In this document: positions 16,779-27,838 of the stretch, one piece after another
How positions within the stretch are numbered: position 1 is the stretch's first letter
How the letters are laid out: each line of letters begins with the position of its first letter
Assembly: GCA_048263945.1 (NCBI GenBank)
Contig: JBLXDQ010000004.1
Coordinates: 229,975 to 293,974, forward strand
Direction of reading: 5' to 3'
DNA length: 64,000 nt
From: Epibacterium sp.
GTDB taxonomy: Bacteria > Pseudomonadota > Alphaproteobacteria > Rhodobacterales > Rhodobacteraceae
Program-made: the position numbers and the translations under genes
The notes under the pieces: generated by a model
Seen by the model: only the letters and a program-made list of their open reading frames with translations
Told to the model about the DNA's origin: nothing
Database searches by the model: none

Positions 16779-17771
16779 TTACTCTGCCGCCATCTTGCGG
16801 GCGCGTTTCTTCTCTGCATGGGCCATCAGCCCCTCGCGCACCCAGGCGCCGTCGTCCCAGGCCTTGTTGCGGGCGGCGAGGCGGTCGGTGTTGCAGGGTC
16901 CGTTGCCTTTGATCACCTCAAAGAACTCTTCCCAATCGGGTTCGGAGAAGTCGTAGCCGCCTTTCTCCTCGTTCCATTTGAGGTTCTCGTCCGGCACGCT
17001 AAGGCCGAGGAACTCCGCCTGCGGCACGGTCTGGTCGACGAATTTCTGGCGCAGCTCGTCATTGGTGTTCATCTTGATCTTCCACGCCATCGACTGCGCG
17101 GAATGCACCGAGTCCTTGTCCGAGGGGCCGAACATCATCAGCGCCGGATACCAGAAGCGATTGAGCGCATCCTGAGCCATCGCCTTTTGCTGGGCGTTGC
17201 CCTTGGCCATTTTCATCATGATGTCAAAGCCTTGGCGCTGGTGGAAACTCTCTTCCTTGCAGACGCGGATCATGGCGCGGGAGTAGGGGCCAAAGGAGGT
17301 GCGCTGCAGCGGCACCTGATTCATGATCGCCGCGCCATCGACCAGCCAGCCGACCGCGCCCATATCGGCCCAAGTGAGCGTCGGGTAGTTGAAGATGGAG
17401 GAATACTTCATCCGCCCGTCGAGCAGCATCTCGGTCATCTCGTCGCGGCTGACGCCCAGCGTCTCGGCCGCGCAATACAGGTAGAGCCCGTGGCCGGCCT
17501 CGTCCTGCACCTTGGCCAAAAGGATCGCCTTGCGCTCCAGCGTCGGCGCGCGGGTGATCCAATTGCCCTCGGGCAGCTGGCCGACGATCTCGGAATGGGC
17601 GTGCTGGCCGATCTGGCGGATCAGGGTCTTGCGATAGCCCTCGGGCATCCAGTCCTTGGGCTCGATCTTTTCGCCCGCGTCGATGCGGGCCTGAAAGGCG
17701 GCCTCCTCGGGGCTCATCTCCTCGCGGGATTTGACCCTGGTCCCGGTCGATTTGACCATCTGCGCGTACAT
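16779..17771 (-). CDS. paaA: Phenylacetyl-CoA epoxidase catalytic di-iron subunit PaaA
   Basis: Start MYAQMVK at 17771; [39 protein letters not shown]. Confidence 0.95.
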
Positions 17772-17862
17772 TGCTGGCTCCTCCGGTCTGGCGTGGCGCG
17801 CGTCCAAAACGCGGCCTGCGCCCTTGCAGTCTAGGCGCAGCAGCGATTCGGCTCAATCCAAA

Positions 17863-18092: not shown

Positions 18093-19901
18093 GTGAAAGA
18101 CGTCCTGCGTATAGGAGGTGCCTGCGGCTATTGGGGCGACGCGGCACAATCTACCCCGCAACTGCTTGCTGCGGGAGATGTGGACGTTCTGGTCTACAAC
18201 TACCTTGCCGAGATCACGATGGCGATTATGGCCCGGGCCAAGGCCCGCGATCCCAAGGCGGGATTTGCCAATGATTTCCTGACAGATGTCCTTGTTCCCA
18301 ATCTGCGCAAAATCGCCGACCAGCGGGTGAAGATCATCACCAATGCAGGGGGCGTCAATCCGCGTGCCTGTGCGGCGGCGGCAGAGGCCGCGATCGCGCG
18401 GGCCGGGCTGAAGCTGAAGGTGGCCGTGGTCACCGGGGACGATCTGATCCAGAAGGCGCCCGATATGGCCAAGGCCGCGCCCAAGGATATGGCCACCAAC
18501 GCGCCGTTCCCGCCTGCCGAACATATTGCCAGCATCAATGCCTATATCGGCGCCTTCCCGATTGCCGCAGCCTTGGACGAGGGGGCGGATATTGTCATCA
18601 CCGGACGCTGTGTCGACAGCGCGATGGCACTGGGCGCGGCGATCCACCGGTTCGCGTGGCAGGATACCGACGTCAAATGGCTGGCGGGAGGATCTCTTGC
18701 CGGGCATGTGCTGTCCTGCGGGGTGCAGGCGACGGGCGGCAATTTCACGGATTGGGAGGCGGTCGAGGGCGATCTGGACAGCCTCGGCTATCCGATTGCG
18801 GAAATCGCGGGGGACGGCAGCTTTGTGGTGACAAAGCCCGAAGGCACCAGCGGTCTGGTCAGCCGGGGCACCGTGGGCGAACAGATCCTGGCCGAGATTG
18901 CCAATCCGCAGGCCCATGTGTTGCCGGATGTGGTTTGTGACTTCAGCCAGGTCACTCTGGAAGAGGTCGGGGTGAACCGGGTGCGGGTGACGGGCGCTGT
19001 CGGCTCCGTGCCGCCGGATCACTACAAGACCGGGGTGGCGTGGATCGACGGGTTCCGCATCGGTCAGTATTTCTCCTTTTATGGCACCGATGCCGAACGC
19101 AAGGCCGAGCGCTTTGCCGATGCGGTGCTGACGAAATCCGAAGCTCAGCTTGAGGCGCGCAATATGCAGCCTTTCCGCGGCACCAACGTGGAAATCCTCG
19201 GGTCTGAGGCGCAGTTTGGCGTGTTGCGGGAAAGCGAAGCCGCCCGCGAGGTGGTAGCCAAGATTGCCGTGCGCCATCAGGAGGCGGCGGGCACGATGGT
19301 GTTCCTCAAGGTGGCCAATGGGCTGAGCTATGCGGCCCCGCCGGGGCTGAGTGGGTACGCCGCGCCGCGCCCGCAGCCCAGCCCGGTTCTGTCGGTGTTC
19401 ACCTGCCTGACGCCGAAGTCCGAGGTGCCGCTGACCCTGCGGATGGGGGCAGACGTCGAACGCAAGATGGTCGCCAAAAAGACCGCTCTGCCTGCCGAGG
19501 TCAAACCGCCCAAACCGCATGAGCCGCCCCGAGATCCGATGGCGCGCGGGCCGGTGGTCTCGGTCCCGCTGGTGCGGCTGGCGTTTGCGCGCAGTGGCGA
19601 CAAGGGCGATCTGGTCAATATCGGCGTGATGGCGCGGCGGCCGGAACAATTGCCGTGGATCTGGGCGGGTCTGAACGAGACCCATCTGGAGCGCGTCTTT
19701 GGCCACTTTATGGAACAGGGTGTGATCCGGCGCTATTTGCTGCCGGGCTTTCACGCGATGAATATTACGCTCTCGGGTGCGTTGAAGGGAGGCGGATCGG
19801 CCTCTCTGCGCAATGACCCGCAGGGCAAGGGGTTCGCGCAGCTTCTGCTTGCTGCGCCGATCATGGTGGATTGGTCTCTGCTGGGGAGTGGCGGCCAATG
19901 A
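18093..19901 (+). CDS. atuA: Acyclic terpene utilisation AtuA-family protein (DUF1446)
   Basis: RIGGACGYWGD, YLAEITM, NAGGVNP, ADIVITGRCVD, AGHVLSCG.QATGGNF, ARSGDKGD, DPQGKGFAQ. Confidence 0.88.
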   Translation: MKDVLRIGGACGYWGDAAQSTPQLLAAGDVDVLVYNYLAEITMAIMARAKARDPKAGFANDFLTDVLVPNLRKIADQRVKIITNAGGVNPRACAAAAEAAIARAGLKLKVAVVTGDDLIQKAPDMAKAAPKDMATNAPFPPAEHIASINAYIGAFPIAAALDEGADIVITGRCVDSAMALGAAIHRFAWQDTDVKWLAGGSLAGHVLSCGVQATGGNFTDWEAVEGDLDSLGYPIAEIAGDGSFVVTKPEGTSGLVSRGTVGEQILAEIANPQAHVLPDVVCDFSQVTLEEVGVNRVRVTGAVGSVPPDHYKTGVAWIDGFRIGQYFSFYGTDAERKAERFADAVLTKSEAQLEARNMQPFRGTNVEILGSEAQFGVLRESEAAREVVAKIAVRHQEAAGTMVFLKVANGLSYAAPPGLSGYAAPRPQPSPVLSVFTCLTPKSEVPLTLRMGADVERKMVAKKTALPAEVKPPKPHEPPRDPMARGPVVSVPLVRLAFARSGDKGDLVNIGVMARRPEQLPWIWAGLNETHLERVFGHFMEQGVIRRYLLPGFHAMNITLSGALKGGGSASLRNDPQGKGFAQLLLAAPIMVDWSLLGSGGQ

Positions 19902-19965
19902 GGGTAATGCAGCTGTTAACGGCAGCTCGGTGGGGGCCGAGACATCACTCTGAGAGGAGGCTGTT

Positions 19966-21582
19966 ATGAACGCCGTCTACAGCAGGATCACCCCCACCGA
20001 CACCGGCCTGTCGCAGAATAAGGCCGAAATGGAAGCGCTTATTGCCCGAATGAGACGGCTGGAAGCGCGGGCCACCGAGAAGAGCGAGGCCAAAAGACCG
20101 ATTTTTGAAAAACGCGGCCAGCTCTCACCCCGGGACAGGCTGGCCGCGCTTCTGGACCCGGGCCTGCCATTTCTCGAACTCTTCAACATGGCGTCGTATT
20201 TGGTCGATGACCCGGACCCGAAATCCTCGGTTCCTGGTGCCTCGATCATAGCGGGCATCGGCTTTGTCGCCGGTGTGCGGGTGATGGTCTATGTCGATGA
20301 CGCAGGGATCAATGCGGGCGCCATGACCGGTAAGTCGGTGGACAAGGCGCTGGGGGTTCTGGCGATTGCCGAACGCCAGCGGCTGCCCTTTATCCATCTG
20401 ATCGAGAGCGCCGGGGCGGATCTGACGCGCTATTCTGTCGAGCTTTGGGCGCAGGGGGGCGCGATGTTCGCGGGGCTGGCGCGCCTGTCGGCTGCGGGCA
20501 TTCCGGTGGTGTCGGTGTTGCATGGTCCGGCCACGGCGGGCGGGGCCTATCATCCGGGCCTGTCGGACTATGTGATCGGCGTGCGGCGCAAGGGGATGGC
20601 GATGCTGGCCGGGGCCGCATTGGTGCAGGCAGCGACGGGCGAGGAGGCCTCGGATGCGGCGCTGGGCAGTGTCGATATGCATGCGGCGGTCACCGGTCTG
20701 GTTGACTACGTCGCCGAGGATGATGCCGAAGCGTTGGAGGTTGCGCGGGGGGTCCTGAGGGATCTGGATTGGCCGCGCGCAACGCTGCCGCGCCGCGACT
20801 ACACCGCGCCCGCCTATCCGGCGGATGACATCCTGAACGTGGTCCCTGCCGACTATCGCTGCCCCTATGACATGGTCGAATTGGCGCTGCGTCTGGTGGA
20901 TGGCGGCAGCCTGCGAGCGTTCAAGCCGGAATATGGCGCCAGCACCCCCTGTTGGCAGGCGCGCCTCATGGGCCATGCCATCGGCCTTGTTGGCAGCAAC
21001 GGACCTGTGGACCCGGAGGGGGCGGCCAAGACGACGCATTTCCTGCAGCTGATGGAGCAAGCCGGAAATCCGGTGATCTTCCTCAGCAATACCACCGGCC
21101 ATATGGTCGGCACCGAGGCTGAGCGCGCCGGTATGATCAAGGCGGGCGCCAAGCTGATCCAAGTGGTGACCAACCTGCGGGTGCCGAAAATCGCGCTCTA
21201 TGTGGGGGCCAGTTTTGGCGCTGGAAATTACGGCATGTGCGGCTATGGGTTCGGCGCGGATTTCCTCTTTACCTGGCCCAACGCGCGCACCGGCGTGATG
21301 GGCGGCGGGCAGGCGGCCCTGACGCTGGAGCAGGTCGCGCGCCGTGTTGCCCGGCGCCGCGCCATGGAGGTGGACGAGGGCAAGCTGTCGTCCCAGCGAG
21401 AGCGGATCATCGACCATTTCGACGGCCAATCGGACGCGTTCTACACCTCTGGGCGGGCGCTCGACATGGGGATGATCGATCCGCGCGACAGCCGCCGGGT
21501 GATCGGGTTCTGCATCGATACCTGTCTTGAGGGGCGCGCCCGGACCCCAATTTGCAACAGTTTTGGAGTGGGTCGGACATGA
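19966..21582 (+). CDS. Acyl-CoA carboxylase carboxyltransferase (beta) subunit, AtuC/MCC-beta-like
   Basis: RGQLSPRDRL..LLD, ESAGADL, AGGAY, NTTGHMVG and GASFGAGNYGMCG motifs are intact. Confidence 0.9.
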   Translation: MNAVYSRITPTDTGLSQNKAEMEALIARMRRLEARATEKSEAKRPIFEKRGQLSPRDRLAALLDPGLPFLELFNMASYLVDDPDPKSSVPGASIIAGIGFVAGVRVMVYVDDAGINAGAMTGKSVDKALGVLAIAERQRLPFIHLIESAGADLTRYSVELWAQGGAMFAGLARLSAAGIPVVSVLHGPATAGGAYHPGLSDYVIGVRRKGMAMLAGAALVQAATGEEASDAALGSVDMHAAVTGLVDYVAEDDAEALEVARGVLRDLDWPRATLPRRDYTAPAYPADDILNVVPADYRCPYDMVELALRLVDGGSLRAFKPEYGASTPCWQARLMGHAIGLVGSNGPVDPEGAAKTTHFLQLMEQAGNPVIFLSNTTGHMVGTEAERAGMIKAGAKLIQVVTNLRVPKIALYVGASFGAGNYGMCGYGFGADFLFTWPNARTGVMGGGQAALTLEQVARRVARRRAMEVDEGKLSSQRERIIDHFDGQSDAFYTSGRALDMGMIDPRDSRRVIGFCIDTCLEGRARTPICNSFGVGRT

Positions 21583-23627
21583 CAGAAGTTCCAAAAACAC
21601 CAAGGCCGCCGAAAACCGGCCCCTTTACCCGCCTGCTGGTTGCGGATCGAGGGGCGGGGGCGATGCGGATCATCAAAAGCGCGCGGGCCATGGGGCTGAC
21701 CTGCGTGGCGGTCTACACCCGAGCCGATTTCGACAGCCCGCATGTGGCCTTTGCGGATGAGGCGATCTGCATCGGTGATGACAACTATCAGGCGGTCGAT
21801 CGGCTGGTGCAGGCGGCGCGCGACAGCGGCGCACAGGCGGTGCATCCCGGGACCGGCCCGCTGGCCGAGAGCGCAGCCTTTGCCAAGGCCTGCGCCAAGG
21901 CCAAGCTGATCTTTATCGGTGCCTCTGCCGAAACGCTGGCGCAGGTGGGCGACAAGGCGGTGACGCGGCGGGTGCTGACGGCGGCCAAAGTGAGCTGTCT
22001 GCCGGGCTATGACGGTGCGGATCAATCGCTTGAGACGCTCTCGCAAGAAGCGGAGCGGATCGGCTATCCGGTGATGATCAAGTCGGCCTGTGGCACGGAA
22101 GGGCGGGCAATGCGGCTGGTCGAGGGCGCCTATGCCCTTGAAATCGCGTTAAAAGACGCACAGGAAGCCGCCACCGCACAGGTCGGATCGAAAGAGGTGG
22201 TTTTGGAGGCGGCCCCGGATGAGCCCTGCCATATCGAGGTCGCCCTTTTGGCGGATGCGCAGGGCGGGTTGGTGCATCTGGGCGAGCGGGACTGTTCGAT
22301 CCAGCGCCGCAATCAAGCACTGATCGCCGAGGCCCCAGCGCCGGGCTTGAAGCCAAAACAGCGCGACAAGATCCTTGAGACCGCGCTCCTGGCCGCGCGC
22401 ACTGTCGGCTTTGTCGGGGTGGGCAGCGTCGAGTTTCTGCTGGATGGCGAGGGCAAGGCGCATGTGCTGGAGATCACCTCTGGCCTGCAATTTTCCGCCC
22501 GGGCGACCGAGGCGGTCTGCGGTCTTGATCTGGTACAAGAGCAATTGCGCATTGCGCAGGGCGATCCCTTAGGGCGGGAACAGGGGGACATCCGCTTTGA
22601 CGGCTTTGGCATCGCGGCGCGGCTTGCTGCGGAGGATGCGGGCGAAGCCTTTCAGCCGCAGGCCGGGCGTCTGGTCCTGTGGCAGGCAGGCGAGGGTGTT
22701 CAGGCGGAGGTTGGCGTGACCAGCGGACAGGCGATTTCGCCGCTCTATGATCCGGTTCTGGCGCTCTATGCGGCCCAAGGCCATTCGCGCGAGGCGGCGC
22801 GTTTGCGGCTGCGCTGGGCCATGCAGCAAACCTTGGTGCTGGGGCTTGCCACGACGCGGGATCTGCTGGTCGAGATCCTCAGCCATGAGGCCTTTAAGAC
22901 CGCGGCGCTCAATACCGGGTTCCTGCGCGAGCATTTCCCCCGCCCCAGTGCGGGACCGCTGACGACGGCAGAGATCGCGGTGGCGGCCGCGTTGTTCTAT
23001 TGGCGCGAGGCGGATGCTGCGGCGCTGAGCGTGCCGGAGGTGCCAGAAGAGCTGTTGAGTTGGTCGAACCAAGGTGTGCTGTTGCGTCGGATGCGCCTGC
23101 GGGCGACGCTTGGCGGGTTTGATCGGGCGATGGCGGGGCGCGATGGCGTTTTGACCGCCCGGCTGGAGGATCGCGGCGGGCAAGTGCGGGTCTTTATTGG
23201 CGAAATGCTGCATGTGGTGACCCGTAGCGCACAGGGTCAGGTGCTGTTGGACGGGGTGCCGCAAACGCTGCGGGCGCAGATGTTCGAGGGGGCGCAGTTG
23301 CATCTTGCGACAGAGACCCGCGTGCTGTCGCTGATGCTGGAGCCTGTTCGGCGCAACCTTCGGGCCACGCAGGCGCAGGGCGAAATCCTCGCGCCGCTGC
23401 ATGGTCGCCTCAAGGGGCTGCAACGCCGCGAGGGCGATCTGGTGCAGGAGGGCGACCTTTTGATGGTGATCGAGGCGATGAAAATCTCGCATCAGATCCG
23501 CGCGGCCACCACAGGCCGCATCGTGGCCTTGCCGGTGATTGCGGGTGATCAAGTCTCGCGCGGGGATCTTTTGGTGCGGATCGAGGCCACCGAAAGCGCG
23601 CTGGAGGTTACAGCCGAACCCGTGTGA
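21579..23627 (+). CDS. Biotin carboxylase-BT-BCCP (alpha) subunit, AtuF/MCC-alpha-like, with degenerate catalytic motifs
   Basis: Colinear with the BC fold (GDK, GYPVMIK, ERDCSIQRR, VEFL, RLAAED, YDP), but ANRGE reads ADRGA, GGGGRGM reads CGTEGRAM, RRHQK reads RRNQA and EMNTRIQVEH reads EITSGLQFSA. BCCP EAMK is retained at 23472-23483. ATGA-coupled to the beta subunit. Confidence 0.85.
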   Translation: MTEVPKTPRPPKTGPFTRLLVADRGAGAMRIIKSARAMGLTCVAVYTRADFDSPHVAFADEAICIGDDNYQAVDRLVQAARDSGAQAVHPGTGPLAESAAFAKACAKAKLIFIGASAETLAQVGDKAVTRRVLTAAKVSCLPGYDGADQSLETLSQEAERIGYPVMIKSACGTEGRAMRLVEGAYALEIALKDAQEAATAQVGSKEVVLEAAPDEPCHIEVALLADAQGGLVHLGERDCSIQRRNQALIAEAPAPGLKPKQRDKILETALLAARTVGFVGVGSVEFLLDGEGKAHVLEITSGLQFSARATEAVCGLDLVQEQLRIAQGDPLGREQGDIRFDGFGIAARLAAEDAGEAFQPQAGRLVLWQAGEGVQAEVGVTSGQAISPLYDPVLALYAAQGHSREAARLRLRWAMQQTLVLGLATTRDLLVEILSHEAFKTAALNTGFLREHFPRPSAGPLTTAEIAVAAALFYWREADAAALSVPEVPEELLSWSNQGVLLRRMRLRATLGGFDRAMAGRDGVLTARLEDRGGQVRVFIGEMLHVVTRSAQGQVLLDGVPQTLRAQMFEGAQLHLATETRVLSLMLEPVRRNLRATQAQGEILAPLHGRLKGLQRREGDLVQEGDLLMVIEAMKISHQIRAATTGRIVALPVIAGDQVSRGDLLVRIEATESALEVTAEPV

Positions 23628-23705: not shown

Positions 23706-24356
23706 ATGGCCGGGCAGACAGACACGCTGATCGCGGCGATCCTTGAGGATATCGACGCAGGTCGCCTTGCGCCGGGGCAAGAGATTGACGAGACCGCGCT
23801 GGCCGCGCGTCATGGTGTCTCGCGCACGCCGATCCGCGAGGCCTATATCCAGCTTGAAGCCTCCGGTCTGATCCGCCGCCTGCCAAGGAAAGGCGCGGTG
23901 CTATTCAAGCCGAGCCTTGAGGAATTCCTCGCCATCCAAGAGGTCCACGCCCGGCTTGAGGGGCAGGCGGCCGGCCTTGCCGCCCGGCGCATCTCGCCCG
24001 AGTTGCGCGCGCGGCTCGAGGCGGCGGTCCTCGCCTGCGAGGCCCATGCGGCAGAGCAGGGCGACGGCGACCCGGATGGCTATTACCAAAAGAACCTTCG
24101 CTTTCACGAGGCGGTGGCCTTGGGGGCCGGCAATCCGGTGCTTTTGGAGATGATCAAGACCAATGCGCGCAAGCTGATGGCCTATTACCGCGCCCGCTAC
24201 CGCTATCCCGGCGCCATTGCGCAATCGGCGCTGGAGCATCGGGCGATTGCTGACCTGATCCTGACCCATGACCGCGACGGCGCCGAGGCCACGATGGAGG
24301 CGCATGTGCTGTTTGATCAGGTCACGGTGATGGACCTCTTGGCGGCGCTGGGTTAG
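23706..24356 (+). CDS. GntR-family regulator (FCD domain)
   Basis: GRLAPGQEIDETALAARHGVSRTPIREA wHTH; FHEAVALGAGNPVL and EHRAIADLI FCD motifs. Confidence 0.9.
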   Translation: MAGQTDTLIAAILEDIDAGRLAPGQEIDETALAARHGVSRTPIREAYIQLEASGLIRRLPRKGAVLFKPSLEEFLAIQEVHARLEGQAAGLAARRISPELRARLEAAVLACEAHAAEQGDGDPDGYYQKNLRFHEAVALGAGNPVLLEMIKTNARKLMAYYRARYRYPGAIAQSALEHRAIADLILTHDRDGAEATMEAHVLFDQVTVMDLLAALG

Positions 24357-25054
24357 CGGGCTTCAAAAAACCGCGCGATGGCCTCAGCCAAGGCGGGCTG
24401 GTCGGCGGGCTCCTCTAGGGTTGCGATGGCGCGGGCGTAGACCTCTGGCCCCAGCTCGGCGCGCATCTCCTCGGTCAGGGCACAGATGAAGGCGTGGGTC
24501 ATCTCCGGGTGGTGCTGGGTGGTGGCGATATGGTCGCCAAGGGTGAAGCCGGTGTTGACCTCCGCCCGTGTCATCAGGGGCAGGGCGCCTGCGGGCAGGT
24601 CGCGCACATATTCCACATGGGAGCCGTAGATCGAGACCACATCCGGCAGGTCACGCGCCCAATCCGGGCGGGCGAGAAGGTGATTCTCGGTCCGGCCATG
24701 CACCCAACCGCCGGGCAGGTTATCGACGCTCCCGCCCAAGGCCAGCGCAATCGCCTGATGGCCGAAACAACAGCCAAACAGCGGCAGTTTCCGCGCGTGC
24801 ATCTGGCGTATCAGCTCCAAAAGCTGCACCACCCAAGCCGCGCCAGAGCGGGTGGAGGCCGGGCTGCCGGTGATCATCACCCCATCGTAAGCACTTATAT
24901 CCAGAGGGAATTCGCCATCCTTCACCGCATAGACCGTGGTGCGCCAATCGGGGCGCGCCATCTGCAACAGGGCGGTGAATTTTTCGCCATCCTTGGGATG
25001 CGCCTCAGCAAAGGCGCTCTCGTCGGTATTGGTCATCAAAATGGCGATGTGCAT
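24353..25054 (-). CDS. Class I glutamine amidotransferase-like protein (candidate gamma-glutamyl-amide hydrolase)
   Basis: ITGSP oxyanion strand, GCCFGHQ nucleophile elbow, TQHHPE His-Glu; start MHIAIL at 25054. Confidence 0.85.
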   Translation of the reverse strand: MHIAILMTNTDESAFAEAHPKDGEKFTALLQMARPDWRTTVYAVKDGEFPLDISAYDGVMITGSPASTRSGAAWVVQLLELIRQMHARKLPLFGCCFGHQAIALALGGSVDNLPGGWVHGRTENHLLARPDWARDLPDVVSIYGSHVEYVRDLPAGALPLMTRAEVNTGFTLGDHIATTQHHPEMTHAFICALTEEMRAELGPEVYARAIATLEEPADQPALAEAIARFFEAR

Positions 25055-25090
25055 ATTTAGGCTTTCCATAAACATAAATCAGGTGCTTAA

Positions 25091-25100
25091 TAGTATACAT
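25091..25100. promoter_or_regulatory. Candidate GntR/FadR-type operator in the GATase/P450 divergent promoter
   Basis: TAGTATACAT (palindromic GTATAC core) in a 73 bp AT-rich gap. Confidence 0.35.
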
Positions 25101-25127
25101 GTGAAGCAGTTCAAAGGAAGCCCCGCG

Positions 25128-26387
25128 ATGACGATCTGGACCCCGAGTGACGATGGTTTTGCGGATCTGTCGAGCCACGACACCTTTGCCAAGGGCGCGC
25201 CGCATAACACCTTTGCCCGGCTGCGCCGCGAGGACCCGCTGCATTGGACCGAATATGCGGATGGGCAGAATTTCTGGTCGGTGACCCGCTACGAGGACAT
25301 CACCCAGATGAACAAGAACACTGAGGTGTTTTCCTCCGCGCGCGGCATTCGGATGGAGGATCAAACCTACGAGGAATACCTCGCGCGGCGCACCTTTCAG
25401 GAGACCGATCCGCCGGAGCATTCCCAAGTGCGGATGAAGCTGCTGAAGGCGTTTTCCAAGACCACAATGGCACAATATGAGGCGGACATCCGCACGCTCT
25501 GCGCCGAGATTTTGGACGCAGCACTGGCCAAGGGAACCTTTGATGCGACCAAAGAGATCGCCCGGCAATTGCCGATGCGGATGCTCGGTCGTGTGGTGGG
25601 CTTGCCCGATGCGGACCTGCCGTGGCTGGTGGAAAAGGGCGATGCGCTGATCGCCAATACGGACCCGGATTTCACCTCCCATGTGCTCGACAAGATGAAC
25701 ACGGACGAGTTCCGCATGATGCCCTTCAACTCGCCCGCCGGGGCGGAATTATACATCTATGCCAAGGAGTTGATGGAGGCGAAGGCGCGGGCGGGCGATA
25801 CTTCGGGCGTGCTCAACCTGATACTCGAGCCTGCCAAGGATGGCTCCACCATCACCGAAACCGAGTTCCGCAATTTCTTCTGCCTTCTGGTGGCCGCGGG
25901 CAATGACACCACGCGCTATTCCATCGCGGCGGGGCTACAAGCCCTGTGTCATCAGCCGGAACTGTTGGCGCAGATGCAGGCGGGCGGCGCGGTCTGGGAG
26001 ACGGCGGCGGATGAGATCATCCGCTGGGCAACGCCCGCGCTCTATTTCCGCCGCACCGCGACGCGCGATGTGGAGATGCACGGCAAGACGATCCGCGAAG
26101 GCGATAAGGTGCTCTATTGGTTCATCTCCGCCAACCGCGACGAGAGCTATTTTGACGACCCCTTCCGGGTGAACCTGATGCGCAGTCCCAACCGGCATCT
26201 GTCCTTTGGCCAGTTTGGCCCGCATGTCTGTCTGGGCATGTGGCTGGCGCGGCTGGAGGTGACGGTGCTGTTTCAGGAGCTTGCCAAGCGGATCAAGTCG
26301 ATCTCGCCGGCGGGCGAGCAGAAATTCCTGCGCTCGAACTTCGTCGGCGGCATCAAGGAATTGCCCGTGCGTATCGAGGCCGCTTAG
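25128..26387 (+). CDS. Cytochrome P450
   Basis: Start MTIWTPSDD at 25128; I-helix LLVAAGNDTT, EIIRW (ExxR) and heme motif HLSFGQFGPHVCLG. Confidence 0.95.
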   Translation: MTIWTPSDDGFADLSSHDTFAKGAPHNTFARLRREDPLHWTEYADGQNFWSVTRYEDITQMNKNTEVFSSARGIRMEDQTYEEYLARRTFQETDPPEHSQVRMKLLKAFSKTTMAQYEADIRTLCAEILDAALAKGTFDATKEIARQLPMRMLGRVVGLPDADLPWLVEKGDALIANTDPDFTSHVLDKMNTDEFRMMPFNSPAGAELYIYAKELMEAKARAGDTSGVLNLILEPAKDGSTITETEFRNFFCLLVAAGNDTTRYSIAAGLQALCHQPELLAQMQAGGAVWETAADEIIRWATPALYFRRTATRDVEMHGKTIREGDKVLYWFISANRDESYFDDPFRVNLMRSPNRHLSFGQFGPHVCLGMWLARLEVTVLFQELAKRIKSISPAGEQKFLRSNFVGGIKELPVRIEAA

Positions 26388-26417
26388 GCTGGGTTTGAAC
26401 GGATGAAGACTGGGACT

Positions 26418-26465
26418 CCCGGGCAATTGCCCGGGCAGCGCCCACCCTAGGCTCGGGCGCTGCCC
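26418..26465. repeat. REP-like hairpin element (same head as the paa intergenic copies)
   Basis: CCCGGGCAATTGCCCGGGCAGCGCCC...GGGCGCTGCCC. Confidence 0.6.
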
Positions 26466-26548
26466 TCTCCGAGGTGACGCGCCACAGATGATTAAGGCCA
26501 GCCGCACGGCAAAGATGCGCGCGGCCTCCAACAGGAAAGGAAGACCCG

Positions 26549-27838
26549 ATGAAGCCCCGCCTGCGCGCGCTGTTCTGCGATCATCTCAGCATTCTGCGGG
26601 GGAAATACCTGCCGCATTCCAAGATCGGCGATGGCGATACGCGCTTTTGCCGCTCGGTCTTTGGCACCCATTACGACCGCGATCTGTTGGACGCGCCGGG
26701 GTCCATGGTGAAACAGGGCCTGCCGGATATGGAGCTGCGCTGGCTCGGTGACGAGATCCGCGACAGCTGGCATGCTTCGACCAAGATCGTGCTTGGCGAT
26801 CTCTATGACGATGCGGGCGAGCCTTTGTCCCTGTGTCCGCGCGGCGCCCTGAAGCGCGCGGTGGCGGCCTGGCAGGCCAAGGGGCTGACGCCCAAGGTCG
26901 GGATCGAGCTGGAAGCCTATGCGCTGCAACCGGATGAATACGGGCGGCTGGTGCCCTATGACGCGCCGGGCGGAGTGGTCTATGGCACCGGCCCTTTTGC
27001 TGATCCTTTGCGGTTCAACGACCGGATCTGGGCGATGGCGGATGAGATGGGTTTCTCCCTCGATATGATCACCGCCGAGTTTGACACGCCTCAGTTTGAA
27101 TACACGCTGACCTTTGACGACGCGGTGAAGGCGGTGGACGATATCGTGCTGTTCCGCTTGATGGCGCGGGAGATCGCGCTGGAATATGGCATCGTGCTGA
27201 CCTTTATGCCGAAACCCGTGGCAGGGGGCGGTGGCTCGGGGATGCATGTGAACATGTCCTTCACGGATGAGGCCGGGGGCAATGCGCTCTCCTCTGGGCC
27301 GCGCGGCGGGCCGGAACATATGAACGATCTGGTGCGGGGCTGTCTCGCGGGATTTCTGCATCACCACAAGGGCTTGGCCGGTCTGATCGCGCCGACCGCC
27401 AATAGCTATATGCGGCTGCAACCGGGGAGCCTCTCGGGCTTTTGGCAGAACTGGGGCGGCGATCATCGCAATGTCACCACGCGGATCAGCTCGGAAGGCG
27501 GTGCCAAGGCGCGGCTGGAGCATCGGATGGCGGATGCGTCATCAAACCCCTATACCACCGTGGCGGCTCTGTTGCAGGCAGCGCGGCTCGGGATGGAGCA
27601 GGGCTATGCCTTGCCGCCGATGGAGACCGGCGACGGGTTTGACCGCACGGATACCCGCGAGAGCACCGCGATGACCTTGAAGGGCGCGATTGCTGATCTG
27701 GAAAAGGATACCGCTCTGGCGGAGGCGGTGGGGCGCGAGCTGGTCGCCAACCATGTGTTTATGAAACAGAAAGAGGTCCGCAAGACCCGCGATCTGGAAG
27801 GCGATGCCTTGCGGGATTTCTACGTGCATTTCGTCTGA
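26549..27838 (+). CDS. Glutamine synthetase-like protein (gamma-glutamyl-amine ligase, PuuA/IpuC-like class)
   Basis: GIELEAY, AEF..PQFE, PKP...GSGMH, NSYMRL, WGGDHR and RLEHR.AD..SNPY; 429 aa with a reduced N-domain, unlike housekeeping GlnA. Confidence 0.85.
   Translation: MKPRLRALFCDHLSILRGKYLPHSKIGDGDTRFCRSVFGTHYDRDLLDAPGSMVKQGLPDMELRWLGDEIRDSWHASTKIVLGDLYDDAGEPLSLCPRGALKRAVAAWQAKGLTPKVGIELEAYALQPDEYGRLVPYDAPGGVVYGTGPFADPLRFNDRIWAMADEMGFSLDMITAEFDTPQFEYTLTFDDAVKAVDDIVLFRLMAREIALEYGIVLTFMPKPVAGGGGSGMHVNMSFTDEAGGNALSSGPRGGPEHMNDLVRGCLAGFLHHHKGLAGLIAPTANSYMRLQPGSLSGFWQNWGGDHRNVTTRISSEGGAKARLEHRMADASSNPYTTVAALLQAARLGMEQGYALPPMETGDGFDRTDTRESTAMTLKGAIADLEKDTALAEAVGRELVANHVFMKQKEVRKTRDLEGDALRDFYVHFV

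What the first reader, a model, noticed from the sequence alone, without database searches (positions are those of the whole stretch)
21579..23627. Intact but apparently catalytically dead biotin carboxylase that keeps its biotin carrier, coupled to a normal carboxyltransferase
Seen: a 682-codon uninterrupted ORF, ATGA-coupled to the beta subunit, aligns along its length with biotin carboxylase. Residues needed for chemistry are replaced (E. coli AccC numbering, aligned by eye). ANRGE reads ADRGA. The glycine T-loop GGGGGRGM reads ACGTEGRAM (from 22080). H236/K238 in RRHQK read RRNQA (22302). EMNTRIQVEH reads EITSGLQFSA (22470), i.e. N290T, R292G and E296S. K116, K159, E276, E288 and R338 are kept, as is the BCCP EAMK lysine (23472). 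Established: K238, R292 and E296 form the bicarbonate/carboxyphosphate site and N290 binds Mg. Inference: this subunit cannot carboxylate biotin but can still scaffold and carry biotin. The complex may therefore run as a soluble biotin-dependent acyl-CoA decarboxylase or transcarboxylase, or take carboxybiotin from another BC in trans. Losses concentrated in the active site without frameshifts argue against simple decay.
Basis: partly seen in the sequence, partly recalled or inferred. Interest (0 to 1): 0.82.

Follow-up and report, generated by a model that had tools for sequence, protein, structure and literature searches.

The report
Dead biotin carboxylase kept by selection
A marine roseobacter keeps an intact, selectively maintained carboxylase alpha subunit whose ATP-using half has lost its catalytic residues while its biotin carrier and partner carboxyltransferase stay normal, so the enzyme must get or lose its CO2 by some other route.

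Summary
ORF 21579-23627 (+) encodes a 682-aa BC-BT-BCCP alpha subunit. It is ATGA-coupled to a geranyl-CoA-carboxylase-type beta subunit and follows an AtuA gene.

Against E. coli AccC (numbering verified on 1bnc) it has lost K238, N290, R292, E296, Y82, E12 and two T-loop glycines. It keeps K116, K159, E201, E276, E288, R338 and the EAMK lysine. None of about 260 other homologs loses any of 14 key residues.

The locus is syntenic in relatives:
- Two deep lineages (this one, and Arenibacterium sp. LLYu02) share the dead site and form one clade.
- Three orthologs are canonical.
- The Tritonibacter horizontis ortholog shows the reverse: intact BC, but dead biotin motif and carboxyltransferase.

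The dead alpha is still under purifying selection (omega 0.12-0.18 on recent pairs; neutrality rejected). So are its beta subunit and AtuA (omega about 0.09). The window's beta subunit keeps 143 of 148 family-invariant positions.

The AtuA model matches citramalate lyase CmlA (9evf), an acetate-releasing lyase.

Verdict: a real, long-lived, selected pseudo-enzyme domain. Where carboxybiotin comes from (a BC in trans, or the substrate itself) is unresolved. It is a new variant of a known kind, of moderately high interest.

The parts
18093..19901 (+). AtuA-family protein (602 aa) with a fused C-terminal ferredoxin-like domain. First gene of the module and a likely acetate-releasing lyase.
   Evidence: Pfam PF07287 at 433 bits and PF23544. 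AF2 model pLDDT 88.9. Foldseek best hit 9evf_A, citramalate lyase, E 6.8e-21, with the C-terminal domain matching 9evf_B. The profile hits 9erq_A, 'AtuA family protein | citramalate lyase subunit A'. Omega is 0.09 in the lineages with a dead BC.
19966..21582 (+). Carboxyltransferase beta subunit (538 aa), geranyl-CoA carboxylase (AtuC) type, apparently catalytically intact.
   Evidence: PF01039 at 291 bits. Best solved relative is GCC beta 5ikl at 516 bits, above MCC beta at 380 bits. TAGGAY and GAGNYGMCG are kept, with 5/148 invariant positions changed, all conservatively. Omega 0.086.
21579..23627 (+). Alpha subunit (682 aa): degenerate BC domain, BT domain and BCCP domain. This is the finding.
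   Evidence: AF2 model pLDDT 90.2. Purifying selection shown.
21624..22928 (+). BC domain (residues 16-450: N, ATP-grasp and C subdomains) with the dead active site.
   Evidence: Pfam envelopes. 38/147 family-invariant columns changed. Crown omega 0.13 with neutrality rejected, LRT 362.
21642..21656 (+). ADRGA in place of ANRGE (N9D, E12A in E. coli numbering).
21846..21872 (+). PGTGPLAES in place of PGYGFLSEN (Y82T, F84P, N88S); part of the biotin pocket.
22086..22112 (+). Degenerate glycine-rich T-loop, ACGTEGRAM (G164T, G165E, G168A).
22305..22319 (+). RRNQA in place of RRHQK. K238A is the significant loss.
   Evidence: H236N also occurs in canonical paralogs of the same genome.
22470..22499 (+). 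EITSGLQFSA in place of EMNTRLQVEH (N290T, R292G, V295F, E296S, H297A). E288 is kept.
23427..23582 (+). BCCP (biotinyl) domain, residues 617-668. The EAMK motif lies at 23472-23483 and the lysine K635 codon at 23481-23483.
   Evidence: PF00364. All 6 family-invariant BCCP columns are kept.
23706..24356 (+). GntR/FCD regulator downstream, conserved in synteny with the module.
   Evidence: Pfam. Synteny.

Best explanation
Core claim (about 0.8). This alpha subunit is a true, long-standing pseudo-enzyme. Its BC domain cannot make carboxybiotin from ATP and bicarbonate. The whole protein is nevertheless kept by purifying selection as the biotin-carrying, beta-anchoring partner of a still-catalytic GCC-type carboxyltransferase. 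It sits in a conserved three-gene module with an AtuA-type acetate-releasing lyase.

History. The BC site died once, on the stem of a small clade within one roseobacter genus. That stem shows a burst of amino-acid change (omega about 0.5-0.6). The former active-site positions have kept drifting since, while the fold, the BT hook, the BCCP domain, the beta subunit and AtuA stayed constrained.

Open step and my lean (about 0.3-0.35 for the whole chain). The biotin on this BCCP is carboxylated in trans by one of the four canonical BCs of the same genome. The free-standing AccC is the most likely; the MCC-alpha-like or PCC-alpha-like subunits are alternatives. The module would then still carboxylate a 3-methyl-branched enoyl-CoA, whose carboxymethyl arm, after hydration, is removed as acetate by AtuA.

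Shown: the residue losses, their rarity, synteny, monophyly, purifying selection, the intact beta-subunit and BCCP motifs, and the AtuA fold match.

Inferred: loss of activity, biotinylation, the scaffold role, the source of carboxybiotin and the substrate.
For: Dead site:
- K238A, N290T, R292G, E296S, Y82T, E12A and T-loop G164T/G165E.
- The NCBIfam accC equivalog scores 390 bits against a cut-off of 626.

Rarity: none of 114 + 149 homologs loses a catalytic one of the 14 key residues.

Not an artefact or a single strain: the same state occurs in a 98% identical protein on three metagenome contigs, including a TARA contig. A differently degenerate form occurs in Arenibacterium sp. LLYu02 and on a Logan contig. 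All sit in the same locus, and the degenerate proteins form one clade with 100/100 support.

Selection on the alpha subunit:
- NG86 omega is 0.14 (window vs L030) and 0.18 (L033 vs L006).
- Binomial tests against neutrality give p = 1e-13 and 6e-26.
- My own GY94 branch model gives background 0.11, stem 0.5-0.6 and crown 0.12-0.14. Crown = 1 is rejected with LRT 237-525. The stem exceeds background with p = 1.5e-4.
- The BC domain alone has crown omega 0.13.

Partners stay constrained: AtuA 0.089 and beta subunit 0.086 in the same branches. The beta subunit keeps 143/148 invariant positions while alpha loses 44/148 (Fisher p = 4e-10). All BT and BCCP invariant columns are kept.

Canonical BCs available in trans: AccC, PCC-alpha-like, MCC-alpha-like and pyruvate carboxylase.

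The module is conserved in other roseobacters, with canonical motifs.

AtuA resembles citramalate lyase CmlA.

Established knowledge (from memory): E. coli AccC acts in trans on BCCP, and actinobacterial alpha subunits serve several beta subunits.
Against: - No biochemical or expression data.
- A BC acting in trans on a BCCP tethered inside an alpha6beta6 complex has no precedent that I know of.
- A purely structural BC domain would be expected to relax more than observed. Even the ATP-grasp lid has omega 0.145. The nucleotide/Mg ligands are all kept, 0/9 lost against 8/12 bicarbonate, biotin and T-loop residues (post hoc).
- The Tritonibacter horizontis ortholog has lost its biotin lysine and its beta-subunit site but is still constrained. 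In this genus, therefore, the proteins can be kept without any biotin chemistry.
- Only 4 of about 20 species of the genus carry the operon, so it is dispensable.
- Deep-branch omega depends on saturated dS: 0.14 by ML, 0.31 by NG86, about 0.5 against 4-fold sites.
- My codon model is home-made, uses a fixed topology and has only 8 taxa.
Confidence: 0.35

Rival explanations
1. Same core (dead BC, live BCCP and carboxyltransferase), but no BC is needed. The complex runs only the carboxyltransferase half-reaction. It would be an ATP-independent, soluble, biotin-dependent decarboxylase of a 3-(carboxymethyl)enoyl-CoA (glutaconyl-type substrate), or an acyl-CoA:acyl-CoA transcarboxylase. AtuA might then run in the condensing direction. 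Killing the BC would stop futile re-carboxylation.
For: - The beta subunit and BCCP stay under strong constraint while BC is lost.
- The burst on the stem followed by renewed constraint fits an adaptive change of direction better than a neutral loss does.
- R338, which stabilises the biotin enolate, is kept in 3 of the 4 degenerate proteins.
- Carboxyltransferase-family decarboxylation of glutaconyl-CoA through biotin is known from GcdA (established knowledge).
Against: - The locus holds no carboxybiotin-decarboxylating partner such as the GcdB/OadB pump, and no second carboxyltransferase of the 5S type.
- Uncatalysed loss of CO2 from carboxybiotin is slow.
- The former BC pocket is not conserved between the two degenerate lineages, so it is unlikely to be a new catalytic site.
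- Canonical relatives of the module have an active BC, so the ancestral direction is carboxylation.
Confidence: 0.25
2. Carboxylase chemistry is no longer needed at all in this genus. Alpha and beta are kept only as non-catalytic structural partners, for example a platform for AtuA. Catalytic sites decay one at a time and at random: BC in this lineage, beta-subunit site plus biotin lysine in Tritonibacter horizontis.
For: - The mirror-image decay in T. horizontis, where alpha, beta and AtuA still have omega 0.11-0.14.
- AtuA is the one component that stays intact in every lineage.
- The genus has lost the NMO gene of the ancestral operon, and most of its species lack the module.
Against: In the window lineage, none of the 30 beta-subunit positions that became free in T. 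horizontis has changed. Over the same time alpha lost 44/148 positions. If those beta-subunit positions were neutral, that retention would be very unlikely (rough estimate below 1e-8). No evidence exists that AtuA binds the carboxylase.
Confidence: 0.15
3. Slow pseudogenisation. The operon is on its way out and the ORF is intact only because too little time has passed.
For: - The module is patchy within the genus.
- It evolves faster than its flanks: alpha is 62% identical between window and L006 where the flanks are 97-99%.
- There have been two independent inactivations in seven orthologs.
Against: - Neutrality is rejected on deep and on recent branches.
- No stop or frameshift occurs in any of 7 orthologs, despite synonymous divergence of about 0.6-1 since the site died.
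- AtuA and the beta subunit are constrained as strongly as in canonical lineages.
Confidence: 0.08
4. The ATP-grasp domain has a new job. It still binds Mg-nucleotide and acts as a sensor or switch, or it activates a substrate other than bicarbonate.
For: - All nine nucleotide/Mg ligands are kept in the window protein, and eight of nine in the sister lineage. Two thirds of the bicarbonate, biotin and T-loop residues are lost.
- The lid subdomain is still constrained.
- Stem omega reaches or exceeds 1 in the N and C subdomains (wide error).
Against: - The residue split was chosen after seeing the data.
- The T-loop that clamps the phosphates is degenerate, and differently so in the two lineages.
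- The remodelled pocket residues are not shared between lineages, which argues against a new defined substrate site.
Confidence: 0.07

Closest known systems
Geranyl-CoA carboxylase AtuC/AtuF of Pseudomonas (alpha6beta6; PDB 5ikl), and the related 3-methylcrotonyl-CoA carboxylase (3u9s)
   Same: - A beta subunit of the same type (516 bits to 5ikl).
- The same alpha architecture, BC-BT-BCCP.
- An operon together with atuA.
- Translational coupling of beta and alpha.
   Different: - The BC active site lacks K238, N290, R292, E296 and the glycine T-loop.
- The rest of the Atu pathway (AtuB, D, E, G, H) is not in the locus.
- The module is a three-gene unit followed by a GntR regulator.
Biotin-dependent decarboxylases (glutaconyl-CoA, methylmalonyl-CoA and oxaloacetate decarboxylases) and Propionibacterium transcarboxylase
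   Same: They use a PF01039 carboxyltransferase and a biotin carrier without ATP and without BC activity.
   Different: They have no BC domain at all. They need a membrane Na+ pump subunit or a second (5S) carboxyltransferase. Neither is present here.
Plant BADC proteins (biotin-attachment-domain proteins that lack the biotinyl lysine)
   Same: A catalytically disabled paralog of a carboxylase component that is retained by selection.
   Different: BADC lacks the biotin lysine and acts as an inhibitor of ACC. Here the lysine is kept and the BC is dead. The Tritonibacter horizontis ortholog is the closer analogue of BADC.
Shared or in-trans BC components (E. coli AccC acting on AccB; the actinobacterial AccA3 alpha serving several beta subunits)
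   Same: Precedent for BC activity being supplied by a separate or shared polypeptide.
   Different: In those systems no dead BC domain is carried along on the biotin-bearing subunit.
Citramalate lyase CmlA/CmlB (PDB 9erq, 9evf), an AtuA-family enzyme
   Same: The fold of the module's first gene product. The C-terminal ferredoxin-like domain matches the small subunit.
   Different: About 16% identity. Large and small subunits are fused here. The substrate here is probably a CoA ester and is untested.

Membership tests
Biotin carboxylase (ATP-grasp BC component: AccC, and the BC domain of MCC/GCC/PCC alpha) | Three-subdomain BC fold (Biotin_carb_N, ATP-grasp, Biotin_carb_C) | tested here: met
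   Pfam E-values 5e-32, 1e-48 and 1e-20. PDB hits at 1e-111. AF2 pLDDT 90.
Biotin carboxylase (ATP-grasp BC component: AccC, and the BC domain of MCC/GCC/PCC alpha) | Catalytic residues K238, R292, E296 and the Mg ligand N290 | tested here: not met
   K238A, R292G, E296S, N290T. These residues are invariant in about 260 other homologs.
Biotin carboxylase (ATP-grasp BC component: AccC, and the BC domain of MCC/GCC/PCC alpha) | Glycine-rich T-loop GGGG(R/K)GM | tested here: not met
   Reads CGTEGRAM.
Biotin carboxylase (ATP-grasp BC component: AccC, and the BC domain of MCC/GCC/PCC alpha) | Score above the curated equivalog cut-off | tested here: not met
   TIGR00514 scores 389.8 against a cut-off of 626.5. 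All other BC equivalogs are also below cut-off.
Biotin carboxylase (ATP-grasp BC component: AccC, and the BC domain of MCC/GCC/PCC alpha) | ATP- and bicarbonate-dependent carboxylation of biotin | not testable with these tools
   Needs an enzyme assay.
MCC/GCC-type alpha subunit (BC-BT-BCCP) | Domain order with a BT domain and a C-terminal biotinyl domain carrying the (E/A)AMK lysine | tested here: met
   Full-length alignment to 3u9s alpha. IEAMKISH is present. All BT and BCCP invariant columns are kept.
MCC/GCC-type alpha subunit (BC-BT-BCCP) | Encoded next to, and coupled with, a PF01039 beta subunit | tested here: met
   ATGA overlap. The arrangement is conserved in all orthologs.
MCC/GCC-type alpha subunit (BC-BT-BCCP) | Actual biotinylation and assembly into alpha6beta6 | not testable with these tools
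   Needs a streptavidin blot and a structure.
GCC beta subunit (AtuC-type carboxyltransferase) | Closest to GCC beta, with both oxyanion-hole motifs intact | tested here: met
   5ikl at 516 bits against MCC beta at 380 bits. TAGGAY and GAGNYGMCG are present, and 143/148 invariant positions are kept.
GCC beta subunit (AtuC-type carboxyltransferase) | Geranyl-CoA as substrate | not testable with these tools
   Substrate unknown. The rest of the Atu pathway is not in the locus.
AtuA family / CmlA-type lyase | PF07287 plus the ferredoxin-like domain, and the fold of citramalate lyase | tested here: met
   433 bits. Foldseek 9evf_A at E 6.8e-21, TM 0.72. Profile hit to 9erq_A at E 0.003.
Na+-pumping biotin decarboxylases (Gcd, Oad, Mmd) | Membrane decarboxylase/pump subunit encoded with the carboxyltransferase and BCCP, and no BC domain | tested here: not met
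   No such gene within 10 kb on either side in the window or in syntenic loci. A full BC domain is present.
Transcarboxylase (12S/5S/1.3S) | A second carboxyltransferase of the 5S (HMGL-like) type | tested here: not met
   Not present in the locus.
Pseudogene | Frame disruption or neutral evolution | tested here: not met
   No stops or frameshifts in 7 orthologs. Omega is 0.12-0.18 with neutrality rejected.

The most novel reading that the evidence does not exclude
A geranyl-CoA-carboxylase-type enzyme caught in the evolutionary transition from ATP-driven carboxylase to ATP-independent biotin enzyme (a soluble decarboxylase or single-site transcarboxylase). It would carry a vestigial but still selected, possibly nucleotide-binding, BC domain, and would work together with an AtuA/CmlA-type lyase. 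The Tritonibacter horizontis ortholog would represent a second, opposite outcome of the same release of constraint.
Probability: 0.25. Interest if true: 0.85.

Novelty: new variant of a known kind. Interest (0 to 1): 0.62.

Why it matters
Biotin-dependent carboxylases are textbook two-site enzymes. I found no report of a natural alpha subunit whose BC half is dead while its carrier and its carboxyltransferase partner are kept by selection (library searches; the library is incomplete).

If the complex is active, one of two things follows:
- BC activity can be borrowed across holoenzymes.
- A carboxylase can turn into an ATP-free decarboxylase or transcarboxylase while keeping its old domain as a scaffold.

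Either result would inform how these enzymes evolve and how pseudo-enzyme domains persist. It would also warn against annotating such genes as carboxylases.

Two further points have value of their own:
- The mirror-image ortholog in Tritonibacter horizontis gives a natural comparison.
- The link of AtuA to citramalate lyase gives a concrete hypothesis for a long-unassigned Atu protein.

Limits: the clade is tiny, with four sequence clusters in one genus, and nothing here has been tested at the bench.

Tried and rejected
- The look-up of sequencing runs, wanted for transcription evidence.
- The genome search, wanted to count BC paralogs in relatives and to inspect the empty locus in species that lack the module.
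- The fetch from genomes, wanted to search the whole genome for BirA, AtuD/E or a pump subunit.

Literature:
- No paper on a dead BC domain.
- None on roseobacter atuA modules.
- The citramalate lyase paper behind 9evf is not in the held library.

Searches that gave nothing:
- A plain phmmer of AtuA against PDB found nothing. Only the profile and the fold search did.
- The promoter and terminator scan gave no more than chance.
- Antisense ORFs across the operon have no Pfam match.

Explanations considered and rejected:
- Assembly or sequencing artefact. The same state occurs in independent assemblies.
- A compensated frameshift as the cause of the lost biotin motif in Tritonibacter horizontis. 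The DNA alignment shows substitutions only.
- H236N as evidence of inactivity. It also occurs in active paralogs.
- The 4-fold-site yardstick as an exact omega. It is saturated in this GC-rich DNA.

Full report
**1. What is there**

ORF 21579-23627 (+) gives 682 residues with no internal stop. Its ATG overlaps the stop of the upstream gene (ATGA at 21579-21582), and GGAG lies about 12 nt upstream. Pfam finds the three BC subdomains and a biotinyl domain. The best solved relatives are full-length MCC alpha subunits (3u9s, E 7e-111), aligned from residue 16 to 670. The architecture is therefore BC-BT-BCCP.

The neighbours on the same strand are:
- an AtuA-family protein, 18093-19901;
- a PF01039 carboxyltransferase, 19966-21582, whose best solved relative is geranyl-CoA carboxylase beta (5ikl, 516 bits, against 380 bits for MCC beta);
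- a GntR/FCD regulator, 23706-24356.

paaABCDE is transcribed divergently upstream. Antisense ORFs across the operon match nothing. Promoter and terminator scans give no more than chance.

**2.

The alignment to it shows the following.

| Status | Residues (E. coli numbering) |
|---|---|
| Lost | N9D, E12A, Y82T, F84P, G164T, G165E, G168A, K202A, L204P, H236N, K238A, E241A, N290T, R292G, V295F, E296S, H297A, H333F |
| Kept | K116, K159, M169, E201, H209, E211, Q233, E276, E288, R338 |

The IEAMKISH biotin motif is also kept.

- H236N is not diagnostic. The genome's canonical PCC-alpha-like and pyruvate carboxylase paralogs read QRRNQK.
- 44 of 148 family positions that are at least 95% conserved are changed. 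By the count over 14 canonical relatives, all changes lie in the BC domain and none in BT or BCCP.
- The protein scores 390 bits on the accC equivalog, against a cut-off of 626.
- Among 114 other near homologs and 149 diverse representatives of a 1.84-billion-protein library, none loses a catalytic one of 14 key residues. The only exceptions are one Y82F and truncated ends. The state is far outside normal variation.

**3. Orthologs and history**

The homolog search found a small clade:

| Protein | Identity to P0001 | Source |
|---|---|---|
| P0002 | 98% | three metagenome contigs, one from TARA |
| P0003 | 64% | Logan contig |
| P0004 | 63% | Arenibacterium sp. LLYu02 |
| P0005 | 61% | metagenome contig |
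| P0006 | 57% | metagenome contig |
| P0007 | 56% | Tritonibacter horizontis |

Identity then drops to 45% for the next relatives. All of the clade members on contigs long enough to show it lie in the same locus: paaABCDE, then atuA-CT-BC-gntR, then GATase, P450 and a GS-like gene; P0003's contig is too short.

- P0003 and P0004 are also degenerate, but differently: ADRGAS/AERGAA, AFG(I/V)AGQGM, RHHQV, EVTPRLSAGF.
- P0005, P0006 and P0007 are canonical in BC.
- The degenerate proteins form one clade (100/100) on a long stem.
- Losses shared by both degenerate lineages are N9, E12A, Y82, G164, G165, K238, E241A, N290T, T291, V295, E296 and H297. The site therefore died once, on that stem, and each lineage has drifted further since.
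- In the one search of relatives that ran, only 4 of about 20 species of the genus had the gene.
- The same three-gene module, with canonical motifs, occurs in Pseudophaeobacter (same locus, plus an NMO-like gene), Leisingera (same locus) and Pukyongiella (a different locus).

**4. Is it decaying?**

Pairwise NG86 within the degenerate clade gives omega 0.14 (window vs L030) and 0.18 (L033 vs L006). Simple binomial tests reject neutrality, including for the BC domain alone (p = 4e-10 and 2e-16).

I wrote a GY94-F3x4 branch model. Its estimates for alpha are:

| Branch class | Omega |
|---|---|
| Background | 0.11 |
| Stem of the degenerate clade | 0.5-0.6 |
| Deep crown | 0.14 |
| Recent tips | 0.12 |

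- The stem is higher than background (p = 1.5e-4) and not different from 1.
- Omega = 1 is rejected on the crown with LRT 237-525.
- Each subdomain, the ATP-grasp lid included, has crown omega 0.11-0.17.
- In the same branches AtuA has 0.089 and the beta subunit 0.086, the same as their backgrounds.

Caveats:
- The model is home-made, uses a fixed topology and has 8 taxa.
- Deep synonymous divergence is saturated. For window vs L006, omega is 0.14 by ML, 0.31 by NG86 and about 0.5 against 4-fold sites.
- All estimates are below 1, and the recent pairs are not affected by saturation.

The pattern is a burst followed by continued constraint. It is not neutral decay.

**5. What else changed**

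- The window's beta subunit keeps TAGGAY and GAGNYGMCG. It has 5 conservative changes in 148 invariant positions; L006 has 8.
- AtuA has 4 changes in 110.
- Tritonibacter horizontis is the mirror image. Its BC is nearly canonical. Its biotin motif EAMKMQH has become HGVSGPQ through seven consecutive substituted codons with no indel. Its beta subunit has lost 30/148 invariant positions, including both oxyanion motifs. Omega on that branch is still 0.11-0.14.
- None of those 30 positions has changed in the window lineage. This argues that beta-subunit chemistry, or at least ligand binding, is still selected here.
- The whole module is far more diverged than its flanks. Between window and L006, alpha is 62% identical, beta 84% and AtuA 86.5%, against 97-99% for the flanking genes. 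Four-fold-site divergence is 0.41-0.60 in the module and 0.11-0.19 in the flanks. This points to a mosaic history or old alleles.

**6. AtuA**

The AF2 model (pLDDT 88.9) matches 9evf_A, 'citramalate lyase - ADP - pyruvate complex' (E 6.8e-21, TM 0.72). Its C-terminal domain matches the small chain 9evf_B. A profile of AtuA homologs hits 9erq_A, named 'AtuA family protein | citramalate lyase, subunit A'.

Citramalate lyase splits a tertiary hydroxy-acid into acetate and a ketone. This is the chemistry long proposed for the lyase step of the Atu pathway. Two papers label AtuA-like genes 'acyl-CoA:acetate lyase' (PMC6849830), and DUF1446 lies next to methylaspartate-pathway genes (PMC4682846).

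The module therefore reads as: carboxylate a methyl branch, then remove it as acetate after a hydration step that is encoded elsewhere.

**7. How it most likely works**

Shown:
- The BC site lacks the residues for bicarbonate activation.
- The carrier, the BT hook, the beta subunit and AtuA are intact and constrained.
- The protein folds confidently (pLDDT 90.2).

Inferred: alpha cannot make carboxybiotin in cis, and it serves as biotin carrier and anchor for the beta-subunit core.

The genome has four canonical BCs: AccC, PCC-alpha-like, MCC-alpha-like and pyruvate carboxylase. My ranking of the mechanisms:

| Mechanism | Probability |
|---|---|
| Carboxylation of this BCCP in trans | about 0.3-0.35 |
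| ATP-free decarboxylase or transcarboxylase | 0.25 |
| Scaffold only, no biotin chemistry | 0.15 |
| Slow decay | 0.08 |
| New nucleotide-dependent role for the domain | 0.07 |

The last option is prompted by a post hoc observation: all nine nucleotide/Mg ligands are retained, while 8 of 12 bicarbonate, biotin and T-loop residues are lost.

**8. Comparison and novelty**

The beta subunit and the overall alpha architecture pass the tests for a GCC/MCC-type enzyme. The BC domain fails three defining features of an active BC. The system is not a member of the Na+-pump decarboxylases or of transcarboxylase, because their defining extra subunits are absent.

I found no description of a BC-dead, carrier-intact alpha subunit. 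I rate it a new variant of a known kind. It is interesting to specialists in biotin enzymes and pseudo-enzymes, but it is confined to a tiny clade and has no bench data.

Noticed in passing
L008:8388-12055 (Tritonibacter horizontis, syntenic ortholog): Mirror-image degeneration. Alpha keeps a canonical BC, but its biotin motif EAMKMQH has become HGVSGPQ through seven consecutive substituted codons with no indel. The beta subunit has lost 30/148 invariant positions (TAGGAY to TAAEAC, GAGNYGMCG to GVGNSGMGG). Omega on the branch is still 0.11-0.14.
   Followed up: partly
window 18093-23627 compared with flanks 16779-17807 and 23706-27838: The atuA-CT-BC module has 3-4 times the 4-fold-site divergence of its flanking genes between closely related species (0.41-0.60 against 0.11-0.19 for window vs L006). 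This points to recombination or old alleles, or to a locally raised rate.
   Followed up: partly
window 18093-19901: The AtuA model matches citramalate lyase CmlA (9evf_A/9erq_A). Its fused C-terminal ferredoxin-like domain matches the separate small subunit 9evf_B. This gives AtuA a concrete candidate chemistry: acetate-releasing cleavage of a tertiary hydroxy-acid.
   Followed up: partly
L036:11980-13116 (Pseudophaeobacter sp. TrK17); L037:13650-15954 (Leisingera): In the same locus of other genera, extra genes sit between BC and gntR. Pseudophaeobacter has an NMO/FabK-like FMN oxidoreductase. Leisingera has an acetyltransferase plus a sulfatase. The window's genus has none.
   Followed up: no
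window about 23109-23147 (alpha residues about 511-523): A 13-residue insertion in the BT domain (LGGFDRAMAGRDG) is shared by all seven orthologs of this genus-level clade and is absent from other GCC/MCC alpha subunits. The whole clade sits on a long stem of 0.58 changes per column.
   Followed up: no
L006:9986-10001 and L033:573-588: In the Arenibacterium-type lineage the CT-BC ATGA overlap is replaced by a 14-nt gap. The beta subunit is 6 residues shorter and alpha has a longer N-terminus (701 or 691 aa).
   Followed up: no
own genome and genus: Only 4 of about 20 species genomes of the same genus carry the module, so it is accessory.
   Followed up: no
window 24353-27838: Downstream lie a class I GATase, a P450 and a GS-like ligase, followed by an aminotransferase, IclR and TctCBA. 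These are 90-99% conserved across the same species and evolve much more slowly than the module. This looks like a gamma-glutamylation-type amine pathway, as another first-stage note suggests.
   Followed up: no
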